Source: Escherichia phage vB_EcoM_112
DNA length: 64,000 bases
Direction: 5' to 3' (one strand)
Sequence record: NC_024125.2
Numbering within the stretch: position 1 is the stretch's first letter; each line of letters begins with the position of its first letter. This document shows positions 57,431 to 64,000 of the stretch, in pieces. Under the pieces are notes generated by a model. It was given only the letters and a program-made list of their open reading frames with translations. It was not told where the DNA came from and made no database searches. The position numbers and the translations under genes are program-made.

Positions 57431-59482
57431 TTATCCTTGAACGAACTTGTAAGGCATGTTTGCAATATCTATGCAAGACGCAATAATTCCAAGAGATGAT
57501 TCTACTTTCTGTTTAACATTTGATGAAACAAATGATGCAAAGTCAACTCTATCTTCTATATCACCTGTCATTGTAACCAATTCACCAGTTTCCATTAAAC
57601 GGTCACCGTCATAAATTACCGATTCGGTGAGTTCTTCTGTGGTCATAACTTCAGCTTGAATAAGCTTGTTGTTAGTTCTAACTGTTCCATCGTTGTAAGA
57701 TGCATCGGTTATTTTATTAACTTTGACCATTAATCCACGTGGCAAAATGACTTCCATTTCATTTGAAGGCGCTAAACTTCCACCGGGTAAAACAACATTG
57801 ACCTTATCAGCCCCAGTAATAACCCATCCAATTCCAACTAAATTATCGCTAGAATTTACAAGTCCTTCATCAGTTTTATCAATAGAAACACTTAAACGCT
57901 TTTCGTCTGGTAAAACACCCACAGATGAATCAGTCATCCAAGTACCAAAAATATTTGGATATAATGATGTTGACACAAAGTTTCTAAAATAAAAAACTCG
58001 ATTTTTTACCATTGCTTCATATATTGAAGGTAACATTCGTTGTGAACGATACAAAGTAATACCTTTTGGTAATCGTTCACCATTTTTAAAGGCTGAATCT
58101 AAATTATCAATGGCTTGTTCTATTTCAGGTGCTGTTAAAATACTTGTACGCTCATCTGGATTATATAATCCCAAAAGAGCATTATTTATGTCTACATATC
58201 CTGAACCTACATATTCACGAATTCCGCGTTTTTGCGCTGGTGTGTATTTAGATGAATCTTTATTTTCGACTATAGGATGTAATGACCATCCAGCGGTAAG
58301 AGCATATCCACGTAATTCTCTTCGAATAATCTTTGTTTTTATTGCATTCCAAGAATTTTGTACTAACTCATTTGCAGCATCTTGGTTTAAATGCGAATGT
58401 CTGTTAATATTTCTTTCAAACCAAGCACCTTTATATTTTTCTAAAGTATCATCGACGATAGAAGCAATAGTTTCTAAAGTTTTTATTGAAGTAATAGATT
58501 CTTTTCGTAATTTTTCTAAAGCTTTATTTTTTATTTCTGCATTAATAATGGATTCTTTATCTTCAGGAATTATAGAAGCTTCTCTGAATGCCATCCCAGC
58601 TGTAACACTGCTAAGAGCATTCTCTAGTGCAAATCCTGAAGTAGAAATTACCGTTAATTCATTAGAATCAGAAATTAAAGGAGCGTCCGCTGGTTTATTT
58701 AATTCTGCCGCTGAAGCCTCAAATTTTTGAAACATCGGTGTTTCAAATCTAGAAGATTCCAATGACTGACTTTGTGCAATTGCTCTACGGGAAATTTTAA
58801 CTTTAACGATTACAGCTTGGTCAGAACGTTTATCATTTTCTTGTGCAATAGATGCTGCAATTGCCTCATTTTTAGTTACTTGAGCTCCAGTATCTTTATT
58901 GATATAAACATCACCGACCTTCGATTCAACTTTAGTAAAGAGCTCGGTACTAATTTCCGGAACCCCTGGAATGTCTTCTAGTGATACATTTTTGCGATGT
59001 ATAAGAATATATGCATACTTTTTATCATAATCCCAGAGTTCCTTAAGAAGGACGTATCTGCCACCTGAACGACTACGGATAAGTCTATCAGCAATAACTT
59101 GAATTTGTCGAGCTTGGCCAGCAGTTTTAGACTTAAGAATACGAAGCATACAAGCATCAATTTTATACTGACGCATTGTTTGCAATGCAACAGTAAAAAC
59201 CGAATTGATATAATTAATTGGGCTTGGACCAAGACCTTTCAATTTAGCAATTGAACCTTTAGCGGTTAATGTAAAAGGAACAATATGCATCATTTTATCG
59301 CCCATCTTTAAATCACGATTAGTATCACCTCCAGATGTATAGGTACATAAACGAAAGCCTGGTTGTTCAATTGCGTCATCAACATGAACTGAAAAAATTT
59401 GCGGTATTTTCTTCTTTGGATTTAAGTTTGTAATCGGAAGAGTAGTATCTTCGTCAAATAATTCTGTAATTAGTTCCATCAT
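57431..59482 (-). CDS. alt: ADP-ribosyltransferase Alt (virion-packaged)
   Basis: 683 aa; C-terminal ART-like R / S-T-S / E elements (LYRSQR, FVSTSLY, EMEVILPRG); late promoter upstream. Confidence 0.9.
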   Translation of the reverse strand: MMELITELFDEDTTLPITNLNPKKKIPQIFSVHVDDAIEQPGFRLCTYTSGGDTNRDLKMGDKMMHIVPFTLTAKGSIAKLKGLGPSPINYINSVFTVALQTMRQYKIDACMLRILKSKTAGQARQIQVIADRLIRSRSGGRYVLLKELWDYDKKYAYILIHRKNVSLEDIPGVPEISTELFTKVESKVGDVYINKDTGAQVTKNEAIAASIAQENDKRSDQAVIVKVKISRRAIAQSQSLESSRFETPMFQKFEASAAELNKPADAPLISDSNELTVISTSGFALENALSSVTAGMAFREASIIPEDKESIINAEIKNKALEKLRKESITSIKTLETIASIVDDTLEKYKGAWFERNINRHSHLNQDAANELVQNSWNAIKTKIIRRELRGYALTAGWSLHPIVENKDSSKYTPAQKRGIREYVGSGYVDINNALLGLYNPDERTSILTAPEIEQAIDNLDSAFKNGERLPKGITLYRSQRMLPSIYEAMVKNRVFYFRNFVSTSLYPNIFGTWMTDSSVGVLPDEKRLSVSIDKTDEGLVNSSDNLVGIGWVITGADKVNVVLPGGSLAPSNEMEVILPRGLMVKVNKITDASYNDGTVRTNNKLIQAEVMTTEELTESVIYDGDRLMETGELVTMTGDIEDRVDFASFVSSNVKQKVESSLGIIASCIDIANMPYKFVQG

Positions 59483-59510: not shown

Positions 59511-59531
59511 AAATTAAAGGCCCGAAGGCCT

Positions 59532-59720
59532 TTAGTAATCTAGTGGTAAGAGAGTACGATATATTTCAAACTTTGGTCCTTTTTCATAGGCATCAAATGT
59601 TTCTGTGAATTTATTATAAGCGTATGCATCTACAAATTCGAGAACGATTTGTGATACAGAAGTAGAAACATCTCCACCTTCTTTTTGAGCAATGACAATT
59701 GCTTCTAAGTAAGCTTTCAT
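59532..59720 (-). CDS. hypothetical protein
   Basis: 62 aa ORF with ATGA-type overlap to 3' end of gene 30. Confidence 0.45.
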   Translation of the reverse strand: MKAYLEAIVIAQKEGGDVSTSVSQIVLEFVDAYAYNKFTETFDAYEKGPKFEIYRTLLPLDY

Positions 59721-61180
59721 AGACCAGTTACCTCATGAAAATCGCCAAATACATCTTCGAACGTATTAGCTTTAGTTTTATCTTCGCGTAAACGAATCGC
59801 AATCGGAAGAAATAATTTAACGTAATCAGTGCGGCCATCAGATTTTAACCAACCGTTGCATTCGCACTCTAGAATTTTTCCAATATAATAATTTTGGTTT
59901 TCCATAATGCGAGTACGGTCAAGTTCATGCGATTTTACACCGGCTTTATCTTTTAAGCCTGAACCAGCATTTACCTTAATTTTTCCACACTCTGACTCAA
60001 GAATAAATCCACCTGCTTTAGTAGGGTCTTTACGGTGAGGATAAATTCCTACAATTTTTAAATCAACATCAATTACTTCTTTAAATTTATAAAGATTTTT
60101 TGAACGGGCATTTTCCCATAACCCATCAACGTTTTTGAGAATAATACCTTCAAGACCTTGGTCAATATACTTTTTATAAATTACCTTGGCTTCGTCTAGG
60201 TTATTTACTACCTGGTTTTCAATTAAAATTACTTTATCATAGCCTGATGTCATTTGTTCTAGTTTAGAAAAACGTACATCATATTTCAAACGAAATGCAG
60301 GAAGACCGTATATTTCTACCAACGGTACATAATCCCAGACCTGAAACTTCATGCATTGAGCTTCTTTTTCAGAAATGGTTCCCTTTAAAGATTTATTAGC
60401 GATTCCATTAGAAGTAGTACGTGATTCAGCTACTTCGGCGAATTCTTTGGCTTTACTAATTTCAGGATAAGCATCAAAAAGAAAATCTAGGCCTTCTGGT
60501 TCCTTTTTAACTTGCTCATGGTATACCAATTCGCCATCAATTAACACACCTTCTGGATGAATCTGGCGGGCTTCAGCAGTCATTTTGATTAACTCTTCCT
60601 TAAGAAGATCTAATCCTAGATATTCATTACCAGCTCGTGATAAAAGACGAACATCATCTAATTCATCACCTCTGACTTCGGCAAAGCACCGAGCTCCATC
60701 AGCTTTTAATTGGGCAAAGGCTGGAAATTTGATATTCTTATTAATGCCTTTTTCATCATAAGAACTTGCCAGCATTTGAGGTTGTTCAGGAATTAAACCT
60801 GGCCAAACTTTGTTTGCAATAGATACTGAAGCACCGCATTCAAGGTCTCGCATCATCACCCGACGCAAAACTTCAACATCATCTTTTTTACCGTCAGTAA
60901 TATATCCAGTTAATTCCTCAATTGCTGCATTGCCAGTTAATTTCCGAGTAGCTAACGTGAATTCAATGAAGTCAAGCATATCGGTAATAGTCAGCATTCC
61001 AAAACTCTGGGTAGCAATACCAGGTTTAGGCCATTTCTTGATATAATACTGCAACCCACGAGAATAAGTTAAACGATATACTCGTTTAAGCAATTCATTA
61101 TCTTTATTCTTTTCAAGAATTGCTTGCTTCTGCTTAGTTGAACCAATAGATGCTATTTCGTTCAGAATTTTAAGAATCAT
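59717..61180 (-). CDS. 30: ATP-dependent DNA ligase gp30
   Basis: 487 aa; adenylation motif KADGAR (LKADGARCFA). Confidence 0.95.
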   Translation of the reverse strand: MILKILNEIASIGSTKQKQAILEKNKDNELLKRVYRLTYSRGLQYYIKKWPKPGIATQSFGMLTITDMLDFIEFTLATRKLTGNAAIEELTGYITDGKKDDVEVLRRVMMRDLECGASVSIANKVWPGLIPEQPQMLASSYDEKGINKNIKFPAFAQLKADGARCFAEVRGDELDDVRLLSRAGNEYLGLDLLKEELIKMTAEARQIHPEGVLIDGELVYHEQVKKEPEGLDFLFDAYPEISKAKEFAEVAESRTTSNGIANKSLKGTISEKEAQCMKFQVWDYVPLVEIYGLPAFRLKYDVRFSKLEQMTSGYDKVILIENQVVNNLDEAKVIYKKYIDQGLEGIILKNVDGLWENARSKNLYKFKEVIDVDLKIVGIYPHRKDPTKAGGFILESECGKIKVNAGSGLKDKAGVKSHELDRTRIMENQNYYIGKILECECNGWLKSDGRTDYVKLFLPIAIRLREDKTKANTFEDVFGDFHEVTGL

Positions 61181-61446
61181 TGTTCATCCTTTAGAGTTTG
61201 GTTTACAGCTCTATTATAAATCAATTCATCATTAAGCTCAGTCAAAGACCTATGATATGTAGTTCTAACTTTATTTCCTTGCATCCAGTGCTTGACGTAA
61301 ATGAAACCTTGTTCTACGCATTTTTTAAAAATTCGTTCGTCTTTTTGAGCACGGAATTCTGGATTGCATCTAAAAAATTGATTTACGTGACCGTAATCAC
61401 GTGTAGTATTACCTTCATTTTCATAAATAGTATGAACAACAAACAT
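61177..61446 (-). CDS. hypothetical protein (30.1 position)
   Basis: 89 aa ORF. Confidence 0.5.
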   Translation of the reverse strand: MFVVHTIYENEGNTTRDYGHVNQFFRCNPEFRAQKDERIFKKCVEQGFIYVKHWMQGNKVRTTYHRSLTELNDELIYNRAVNQTLKDEQ

Positions 61447-62285
61447 TAGAATGCTCCTTGGAAAATATTATCACCACTAGTAGGTCTATTATACAAATAC
61501 TCTATACCGCCGGGTTTAATATAGTTCCATGTCTGAAACGGATGTGTCTGATATGGATGATATAGATGATTATAAGGATTAAATCCAGGAGTTCTCCAGG
61601 TAGTGTTCCAAGGAAAAGAATCGTTTTTAATCATCTTTTCAATTACATCTTTTATAGCTTTTTCACTATCAAAACTTTCTTTATTTTCCTTCGGTGAAAA
61701 AAGCTTATTCTCTACATCGTTCCATGTATAAACTCGCTGAGCAGTTTTTGGAATACTGTCACGTTCCCCTCGAGCCATCCAATAAACAGGAACATTTAAT
61801 ATTTCACTCGCGTGATCGCAGTGGTGAGCGAGATCGTCAATATAACAAATCACGTTATATTTCTCTTTTGCCTTTTTAAACAACTCTTCTTTTGAAGAAT
61901 CATGACCACACATCAGTACTTCTGAGAAGGCACCAGGAAAAAGAGCATTCAAATTAAATTGACGATTCAGCAGAGCGTCAATAGAATCACCCAATGCTGT
62001 AACAGCTACAAAATTATAATCTTCTTTTAATTTGTTAATTACACACAGGGCATCTTTATATGGAGACAAGTAACGAATAAAATCTGAACGATTGTATTTT
62101 TCAATTAACTTGACGCCAAGTTCTTCATCACAATTAAAAAGTTTACCAGGAGAAATAAATTTTTCATCTTGGATCATTTTTAAAATATGTTCCAATGGAA
62201 GATTATATTTCTGAGCAAAATAAGGAAGGCCTGATTGCCAGCTTAAACATACTCCATCAATATCAGTTAAAATAGTAGGCTTCAT
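61446..62285 (-). CDS. HAD-superfamily-like hydrolase (30.2 position)
   Basis: 279 aa; N-terminal DIDGV motif (HAD motif I DxDG). Confidence 0.55.
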   Translation of the reverse strand: MKPTILTDIDGVCLSWQSGLPYFAQKYNLPLEHILKMIQDEKFISPGKLFNCDEELGVKLIEKYNRSDFIRYLSPYKDALCVINKLKEDYNFVAVTALGDSIDALLNRQFNLNALFPGAFSEVLMCGHDSSKEELFKKAKEKYNVICYIDDLAHHCDHASEILNVPVYWMARGERDSIPKTAQRVYTWNDVENKLFSPKENKESFDSEKAIKDVIEKMIKNDSFPWNTTWRTPGFNPYNHLYHPYQTHPFQTWNYIKPGGIEYLYNRPTSGDNIFQGAF

Positions 62286-62746
62286 AGAGAGTCTCTTAAT
62301 AGGTTTAACACATCAATAAATTCAGCTTCGGTTAGTATTGTATCATCTTTTGTTAGACCACTAGCCATGCTGTGCTTCAAAACTTTTCCTTTCGAGGCTT
62401 GTAATGCATCACGAAAGCCCTTGTTTTGGATTGCTGCTTCAAAATATGCATTTGTGTATAATTCTTTCCACGCCGGGGAGTATCTTGAAAACGGAACTCC
62501 AAGCCAGAAGAGGGTCCCACGGTCCTGAGCTCTAGCATAAGACCTTCCAGCTTGTTGAGCGGCAAGCCCGGATAACCCAAATATACGACGTTGTTGTTCA
62601 ACATTTTTCACCTTGCATCCTTGGAGGAATCCTTCAAGACCTCCAAATTGAATACCATCCATAACGAAAGGCCATTGGGCGAAATTACTTAATGCACATG
62701 ATGGCCACCTAAAATTGCTTCTAATCTCTAACTCAGACATTTTCAA
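62282..62746 (-). CDS. NADAR / YbiA-like domain protein (30.3 position)
   Basis: 154 aa; LSNFAQWPFVMDGIQF resembles the YbiA/NADAR signature FSNFAAWPIKVDGKTW. Confidence 0.5.
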   Translation of the reverse strand: MKMSELEIRSNFRWPSCALSNFAQWPFVMDGIQFGGLEGFLQGCKVKNVEQQRRIFGLSGLAAQQAGRSYARAQDRGTLFWLGVPFSRYSPAWKELYTNAYFEAAIQNKGFRDALQASKGKVLKHSMASGLTKDDTILTEAEFIDVLNLLRDSL

Positions 62747-62939
62747 TGCTTATAATTTCAACATCAGCCCAATGACCATAGCAAGGAAGACGAAATTCAA
62801 CTGGCCAGTTAGGGTCCTTTTCTAATATAATAGACTCAACTCGTGGTTCTTCATGTTCATCAGTATATGGATTTTTATCTGTTACTTTATATGTGACCTT
62901 AATGTACTGAATTCCAAAAATCTTATTAATTATATTCAT
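62733..62939 (-). CDS. hypothetical protein
   Basis: 68 aa ORF. Confidence 0.45.
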   Translation of the reverse strand: MNIINKIFGIQYIKVTYKVTDKNPYTDEHEEPRVESIILEKDPNWPVEFRLPCYGHWADVEIISIENV

Positions 62940-63894: not shown

Positions 63895-64000
63895 TTATTT
63901 TACTACTTTCCAATGCTTCATGTCAAGTTTACCAACTTTTTTCATCTTCTCAATTAAGCGTTCGGCACGTTGGCGAGCTGTAACATAATACCATTCACCT
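63895..64000 (-). CDS. hypothetical protein, C-terminal part (gene starts beyond window end)
   Basis: Open minus-strand frame ...GEWYYVTARQRAERLIEKMKKVGKLDMKHWKVVK ending at stop 63895..63897. Confidence 0.35.
   Translation of the reverse strand, partial: GEWYYVTARQRAERLIEKMKKVGKLDMKHWKVVK

What the first reader, a model, noticed from the sequence alone, without database searches (positions are those of the whole stretch)
62282..62746. NADAR/YbiA-like protein encoded in the ligase operon a few kb from the ADP-ribosyltransferase Alt
The 154-aa product contains LSNFAQWPFVMDGIQF, resembling the YbiA/NADAR signature (FSNFAAWPIKVDGKTW in E. coli YbiA as I recall it). NADAR domains are linked to NAD/ADP-ribose metabolism and to reversal of nucleic-acid ADP-ribosylation. 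Next to it are a HAD-like hydrolase (DIDGV motif) and DNA ligase. A phage ADP-ribose-processing enzyme could detoxify host ADP-ribosylating defences or balance the phage's own ARTs.
Basis: inference. Interest (0 to 1): 0.5.

Follow-up and report, generated by a model that had tools for sequence, protein, structure and literature searches.

The report
T4 AdfN (gp30.3), known anti-DarT enzyme

Summary
The ORF at 62282..62746 (-) is real. Its likely start is the ATG at 62740, giving 152 aa rather than 154. The product is 151/152 identical to phage T4 gp30.3; the one change, I125M, matches the family consensus.

The window is a Tequatrovirus segment with the T4 gene order alt, alt.1, 30 (ligase), 30.1, 30.2, 30.3, 30.4.

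My tests support membership of the NADAR superfamily:
- Pfam PF08010 (Phage_30_3) at E=2e-70.
- Profile-profile match to a YbiA/NADAR alignment: 97% probability, E=7e-11.
- E36 and H123 are invariant and K43 is at least 90% conserved across 72 homologues.
- The C-terminal helix, which is missing from the defective RB69 allele, is intact.

Published work already covers this protein. The phage NADAR class was defined bioinformatically (de Souza and Aravind, as cited). T4 gp30.3 removes guanine-linked ADP-ribose in vitro (Toxins 2024). As AdfN it is necessary and sufficient for T2/T4 resistance to DarTG1 (Nat Commun 2025; confirmed by HIDEN-SEQ 2025).

The feature is already known, so interest is low.

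One question remains open: why AdfN-T4 works fully only during T-even infection.

The parts
62282..62740 (-). adfN (gene 30.3) coding sequence, 152 aa from the ATG; a phage-type NADAR ADP-ribosylglycohydrolase
62645..62692 (-). N-terminal NADAR signature LSNFAQWPFVMDGIQF (residues 17-32)
   Evidence: L17, S18, N19, F20 and F25 are invariant, and D28 and G29 are at least 90% conserved, in 72 homologues. The motif aligns to YbiA FSNFAAWPIKVDGKTW.
62633..62635 (-). Codon for catalytic Glu36 (gaa)
   Evidence: The codon was read. E36 is invariant in A1 and aligns with YbiA E48. E36A impairs AdfN-T4 (PMC11825919).
62612..62614 (-). Codon for catalytic Lys43 (aag)
   Evidence: The codon was read. 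K43 is at least 90% conserved and aligns with YbiA K55. K43A impairs AdfN-T4.
62372..62374 (-). Codon for His123 (cac), the residue that defines the phage (gp30.3) NADAR class in place of Glu (YbiA class) or Asp (DarG1 class)
   Evidence: H123 is invariant in A1. The class definition comes from PMC11125620 and PMC11543638.
62288..62329 (-). C-terminal alpha-helix (residues 138-151), intact here and lost in the inactive RB69 allele
   Evidence: AF2 predicts a helix at 138-151. The protein is full length relative to T4. The RB69 truncation of 15 residues reduces activity.
61446..62285 (-). Gene 30.2: a HAD-superfamily hydrolase-like protein whose start overlaps the adfN stop by 4 nt; substrate unknown
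62733..62939 (-). Gene 30.4, whose stop overlaps the adfN ATG by 8 nt
   Evidence: phrog_2042.
61177..61446 (-). Gene 30.1 (DUF3045)
   Evidence: PF11243 at E=2.9e-64.
59717..61180 (-). Gene 30, ATP-dependent DNA ligase
   Evidence: PF01068; T4 annotation.
59515..59534 (-). Terminator-like hairpin at the end of the 30.x/alt.1 gene string, just upstream of alt
   Evidence: Consensus scan only.
57431..59482 (-). alt, a packaged ADP-ribosyltransferase; a neighbour, with no evidence here that it is a functional partner
   Evidence: PF03496 at E=1.4e-34; T4 annotation.

Best explanation
The gene is the orthologue of T4 30.3, also called adfN (anti-DarT factor NADAR), in a Tequatrovirus. It sits in a tightly packed, overlapping string of genes (30.7 to alt.1). 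That string is preceded by a near-consensus sigma-70-like promoter and is described in the literature as early.

The 152-aa product consists of the minimal NADAR core fold. When a DarTG1-carrying host is infected, the DarT1 toxin ADP-ribosylates guanine in phage DNA and blocks replication. AdfN hydrolyses the N-glycosidic bond between ADP-ribose and guanine, using a Glu36/Lys43/His123 active site, and so restores the template. It does this enzymatically and does not bind the toxin.

Shown here: identity to T4 AdfN, the NADAR fold, profile homology, conservation of the catalytic residues, and an intact C-terminus. Taken from the literature for the 99.3%-identical T4 protein: the enzymatic activity and the in vivo role.
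For: - The product is 151/152 identical to T4 gp30.3. The only change, I125M, matches the family consensus M. Two deposited phages, teqskov and JEP6, encode the identical protein.
- PF08010 at E=2e-70.
- hhalign of 72 gp30.3 homologues against 41 YbiA/NADAR sequences gives 97.1% probability, E=7.4e-11, over 120 columns. It pairs E36 with YbiA E48 and K43 with YbiA K55.
- A profile search of PDB sequences returns YbiA as the best hit, E=0.0088.
- 10 of 72 members also hit PF08719.
- AF2 gives pLDDT 92.7 and pTM 0.88.
- E36 and H123 are invariant and K43 is at least 90% conserved.
- Substitutions relative to T4 show purifying selection.
- Literature: deleting adfN makes T4 and T2 unable to plaque on DarTG1; ectopic AdfN-T4 rescues RB69; purified AdfN-T4 removes ADP-ribose from DarT1-modified DNA while E36A does not; there is no two-hybrid interaction with DarT1.
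- Literature: T4 NADAR hydrolyses guanosine-ADPr but not thymidine-ADPr in vitro.
- Literature: transposon insertions in 30.3 are lost on DarTG1 hosts.
Against: - Nothing was assayed on this particular allele.
- A single-sequence Pfam scan does not reach the NADAR model PF08719 at E<=1, and a single-sequence PDB search finds no NADAR.
- AdfN-T4 cannot neutralise DarT1 in uninfected E. coli and only weakly rescues T5 and Bas25. The simple picture of a free-standing antitoxin-like eraser is therefore incomplete.
Confidence: 0.93

Rival explanations
1. The protein is a metabolic YbiA-type N-glycosidase. On this reading it cleaves reactive riboflavin-pathway intermediates or other small ribosyl compounds for phage nucleotide or cofactor housekeeping, and has nothing to do with defence.
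For: It has the same fold as E. coli YbiA and a shared N-terminal motif. YbiA is annotated as an N-glycosidase.
Against: The gp30.3 class carries His123 where the YbiA class has its defining Glu. The T4 orthologue has a specific DarTG1-dependent phenotype and is dispensable on plain K-12. Even YbiA itself hydrolyses guanosine-ADPr in vitro.
Confidence: 0.02
2. The protein's main job is to reverse or tune ADP-ribosylation made by the phage's own transferases (Alt, ModA, ModB) on host proteins or RNA.
For: alt lies 2.8 kb away on the same strand. A survey noted that in T4-like phages NADAR genes are expressed early along with the ARTs (PMC9503650).
Against: Published substrates of the T4 NADAR are guanine-linked ADP-ribose in DNA and RNA; none of the passages I read reports a protein-linked substrate. 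A terminator-like hairpin separates alt from the 30.x string. Distant gp30.3 homologues have no ART neighbour. The T4 deletion has no reported phenotype without DarTG1.
Confidence: 0.03
3. Besides DNA repair, the enzyme degrades soluble ADP-ribose-derived immune signals or RNA-repair by-products. This is the general proposal made for phage NADARs from comparative genomics.
For: PMC9503650 proposed it from distribution and context. Distant homologues sit near Nudix and Thg1-like genes in a roughly 300-kb phage-like contig.
Against: There is no experimental support in the papers read. The known phenotype is fully explained by removal of DNA guanine-ADPr.
Confidence: 0.05

Closest known systems
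T4 gp30.3 = AdfN (anti-DarT factor NADAR), Johannesman et al., Nat Commun 2025 (PMC11825919)
   Same: It is 151/152 identical, the same length, and in the same genomic position between 30.4 and 30.2. E36, K43 and H123 and the C-terminal helix are all present.
   Different: There is a single I125M substitution, and M is the family consensus at that position. Nothing else differs.
DarG1, the NADAR antitoxin of DarTG1 (for example Geobacter lovleyi NADAR, PDB 8bat)
   Different: DarG1 has Asp at the third catalytic position and extra N-terminal elements that form an electropositive channel. The phage protein is the bare core with His there. AdfN-T4 cannot replace DarG1 in uninfected cells.
E. coli YbiA (PDB 2b3w; Pfam PF08719 NADAR)
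   Different: Identity is only about 18-20%. YbiA has Glu in the last strand where gp30.3 has His123, and a longer loop (ENDxYWGDGG) that is absent from gp30.3. YbiA is chromosomal, next to dinG and rhlE.
AdfA (T4 61.2 family) and AdfM (tk.4 macrodomain)
   Same: They are other T-even anti-DarT factors.
   Different: AdfA binds DarT1 directly. AdfM is a macrodomain aimed at the thymidine-ADPr made by DarTG2. Neither is homologous to this protein.

Membership tests
NADAR superfamily | The NADAR alpha+beta fold: a helical core flanked by two small beta-hairpins. | tested here: met
NADAR superfamily | Sequence-profile homology to YbiA/DUF1768 (PF08719). | tested here: met
   hhalign gives 97.1% probability and E=7.4e-11. 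A profile search of the PDB returns YbiA at E=0.0088. 10 of 72 homologues hit PF08719, best E=1.5e-7. The window protein on its own does not reach PF08719 at E<=1.
NADAR superfamily | A conserved catalytic Glu and Lys on the helix after the first hairpin (E-x6-K). | tested here: met
   The window protein has E36 and K43. E36 is invariant and K43 is at least 90% conserved in 72 homologues. They align to YbiA E48 and K55.
Phage NADAR / gp30.3 class (Pfam PF08010) | His in the last strand, in place of the Glu of the YbiA class or the Asp of the DarG1 class. | tested here: met
   H123 is invariant in 72 homologues. PF08010 scores 235 bits against a cut-off of 36. hhalign placed H123 opposite YbiA H126, one column away from E125, so the exact structural equivalence rests on the literature.
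AdfN (functional anti-DarTG1 factor) | A full-length protein with the C-terminal helix; the RB69 allele lacking the last 15 residues is defective. | tested here: met
   The protein is 152 aa and co-linear with T4 to the last residue. AF2 predicts a helix at 138-151.
AdfN (functional anti-DarTG1 factor) | Hydrolysis of guanine-linked ADP-ribose on DNA. | not testable with these tools
   This is reported for the T4 protein and inferred here from 99.3% identity.
AdfN (functional anti-DarTG1 factor) | The gene is required for plaque formation on DarTG1 hosts. | not testable with these tools
   This is reported for T4 and T2 deletions and for transposon libraries.
HAD superfamily (neighbouring gene 30.2) | A Rossmannoid HAD fold with motif I DxDx(T/V) and a motif IV acidic pair. 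| tested here: met

The most novel reading that the evidence does not exclude

The most novel reading my evidence does not exclude is that the missing factor is the gene immediately downstream, 30.2. This gene encodes a HAD-fold hydrolase. Its start overlaps the adfN stop by 4 nt, which would allow translational coupling. In the phage collection it has almost the same genus-level distribution as adfN: 1450 versus 1509 records with near-identical per-genus counts, almost all T4-like phages.

Such a pair might act together, for example by processing the released ADP-ribose or a phosphorylated intermediate, or by recruiting AdfN to replicating DNA.

Three points count against this reading. The co-distribution may simply reflect conserved synteny. 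Distant gp30.3 homologues lack an adjacent 30.2. The HIDEN-SEQ preprint's main text never mentions 30.2, and the only DarTG1-conditional gene it discusses there is adfN.
Probability: 0.05. Interest if true: 0.5.

Novelty: already known. Interest (0 to 1): 0.1.

Why it matters
This result serves as annotation. It lets the window's gene be labelled adfN, a functional full-length allele, and predicts that this phage resists DarTG1. That is useful when choosing phages for hosts that carry DarTG systems. It adds nothing new to biology. The family assignment, the enzymology and the in vivo role were published between 2012 and 2025. The one open point is why the T4-type enzyme needs the T-even infection context.

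Tried and rejected
- Single-sequence searches did not reach NADAR. Pfam gave only PF08010, NCBIfam gave nothing, PADLOC gave nothing, and phmmer against the PDB gave only a chance hit. Profile-profile and fold comparison were needed.
- I tested whether 30.2 is a conserved partner of gp30.3 outside T4-like phages. In a roughly 300-kb contig (L003-L005) and in an 82-kb contig (L006-L008), the genes flanking the gp30.3 homologue show no similarity to gp30.2 and hit no PHROG family. Only the T4-like locus L009 keeps the order 30.3, 30.2, 30.1, ligase, alt. The idea of an obligate two-gene module is therefore not supported.
- I considered whether the internal out-of-frame ORF 30.3' (62377..62604) is a real overlapping gene. 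All 4 nucleotide differences from T4 within it change its amino acids and are silent in the 30.3 frame, so there is no sign of selection on it.
- I considered co-transcription of alt with adfN as functional evidence and rejected it. A terminator-like hairpin follows alt.1, though this rests on a consensus scan only.
- The promoter scan over the region is not above background: 32 sites found against 26.7 +/- 4.7 expected. Only the 11/12 match at 63926-63897, upstream of 30.7, is worth noting.

Full report
**Observation**

The mechanical ORF list shows a 154-aa ORF at 62282..62746 on the minus strand, starting at a TTG. Two codons downstream, at 62740, there is an ATG that overlaps the stop of the upstream ORF (ATGTCTGA).

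Phage T4's gene 30.3 is annotated as 459 nt / 152 aa. The window protein read from the ATG aligns to it end to end, with 151/152 identical residues. I therefore take 62282..62740 as the gene.

A YbiA N-terminal sequence containing FSNFAAWPIKVDGKTW matched E. coli ybiA ('N-glycosidase YbiA') at 100%. BLASTP aligns the two motifs, with 33% identity over 57 aa and E=5e-6 for the single comparison.

**Where the window comes from**

A 2.2-kb stretch around the gene is 97-98% identical to hundreds of Escherichia, Shigella and Yersinia T4-like phages. The gene order is that of T4: alt, alt.1, 30, 30.1, 30.2, 30.3 (with 30.3'), 30.4 and onwards.

The neighbours were checked:
- Alt carries PF03496, and the ligase carries PF01068.
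- 30.1 is DUF3045.
- The genes from 30.4 to alt.1 overlap or abut one another.
- A near-consensus promoter-like site lies upstream of 30.7.
- A terminator-like hairpin follows alt.1, just before alt (consensus scan only).

**Is it a NADAR?**

The window protein alone hits only PF08010 (Phage_30_3, E=2e-70) and not PF08719 NADAR. It finds no NADAR in PDB sequences. More sensitive tests overturn it:

1. I aligned 72 full-length homologues (A1) and 41 YbiA/NADAR proteins (A2). hhalign gives 97.1% probability and E=7.4e-11 over 120 columns. It pairs E36 with YbiA E48 and K43 with YbiA K55.
2. The A1 profile finds YbiA as its best PDB sequence, at E=0.0088.
3. 10 of the 72 homologues individually hit PF08719.
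4. AlphaFold2 with A1 gives pLDDT 92.7 and pTM 0.88.
5. The top three Foldseek hits in the PDB are YbiA 2b3w, Phytophthora NADAR 8bau and Geobacter NADAR 8bat.

Invariant residues in A1 include S18, N19, F20, E36, G37, F38, Q40 and H123. K43 is at least 90% conserved.

**What is already known**

Two papers cite the bioinformatic study by de Souza and Aravind for the classification. [quoted passage not shown] That fits the invariant H123.

- Toxins 2024 showed that T4 gp30.3 hydrolyses guanosine-ADPr but not thymidine-ADPr in vitro, yet fails to rescue DarT1 toxicity in uninfected cells.
- Johannesman et al. (Nat Commun 2025) mapped DarTG1 resistance of T2 and T4 to 30.3 and renamed it adfN. 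They showed that deletion abolishes plaquing on DarTG1 and that ectopic expression rescues RB69. E36A and K43A are impaired. The RB69 allele is a frameshift that removes the last 15 residues. The purified protein removes ADP-ribose from DarT1-modified DNA.
- A transposon screen confirmed that 30.3 is conditionally essential on DarTG1.
- A 2026 paper lists the T4 phage NADAR as acting on G-ADPr but not among the enzymes that remove C-ADPr.

**This allele**

The window protein differs from AdfN-T4 only by I125M, and M is the family consensus at that position. Two deposited phages, teqskov and JEP6, encode an identical protein. It has E36, K43 and H123 and the full C-terminal helix at 138-151.

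Of 7 nucleotide differences from T4, all are at third codon positions and 6 are synonymous. I conclude with high confidence that this is a functional adfN.

**Surroundings**

I asked whether 30.2 could be the unknown T-even factor that AdfN-T4 appears to need.

In favour:
- The coding regions overlap by 4 nt.
- The two genes have near-identical distributions by genus in the phage collection, mostly T4-like phages: 1509 versus 1450 records.

Against:
- Distant gp30.3 homologues in other contigs have unrelated neighbours.
- The co-distribution is what conserved synteny alone would give.
- The HIDEN-SEQ text never mentions 30.2 in its DarTG1 passage.

I rate this reading at about 5%.

**Verdict**

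The feature is already known in sequence, fold class, enzymology and biological role. Interest is low.

Noticed in passing
window 62377..62604 (-): This internal out-of-frame ORF of 75 aa corresponds to T4's annotated gene 30.3'. Relative to T4, all 4 nucleotide differences within it are nonsynonymous in its own frame and synonymous in the 30.3 frame. There is no sign that it is under selection as a gene.
   Followed up: yes
window 61446..62285 (-), gene 30.2: The product is a HAD-fold protein with invariant DxD, K and DD motifs. It has no Pfam family and a disordered C-terminal tail of about 80 aa whose length varies (homologues run from 176 to 347 aa). Its substrate is unknown. It is almost confined to T4-like phages and has nearly the same genus distribution as adfN.
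   Followed up: partly
proteins P0325, P0365, P0395, P0425, P0440 (relatives of the window protein): The gp30.3-type profile finds 1678 representatives of 50%-identity clusters (478 at E<=1e-30). Some are long fusions: with BspA-type leucine-rich repeats, with Lgt, with an FtsW/RodA-like membrane domain, or as tandem PF08010 copies. These may be cellular proteins or gene-call artefacts.
   Followed up: no
proteins P0004-P0007, P0013, P0016, P0017 (public alleles): Several deposited T4-like phages and metagenomes carry truncated 30.3 products of 89-126 aa at 80-98% identity. They recall the defective frameshifted RB69 allele and suggest that adfN is lost recurrently where DarTG1 is absent.
   Followed up: no
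window 59515..59534 (-) and 63897..63926 (-): A terminator-like hairpin (TAAAGGCCTTCGGGCCTTTA followed by a T-run) lies directly after alt.1 and before alt. An 11/12 sigma-70-like promoter match lies upstream of 30.7. Together they appear to bracket the 30.7-to-alt.1 gene string.
   Followed up: no
L003:8115-10294 (the ~300-kb contig that carries a 38%-identical gp30.3 homologue): The distant homologue lies within 3-5 kb of Nudix and Thg1-like genes, and an AAA ATPase gene lies upstream. This context differs from the T4 ligase region.
   Followed up: no
literature, PMC11125620 methods: The T4 NADAR construct is described as 'gp30.3; residues 1-208', whereas T4 gp30.3 is 152 aa. This may be a typographical error or a tagged construct; I could not resolve it here.
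   Followed up: no
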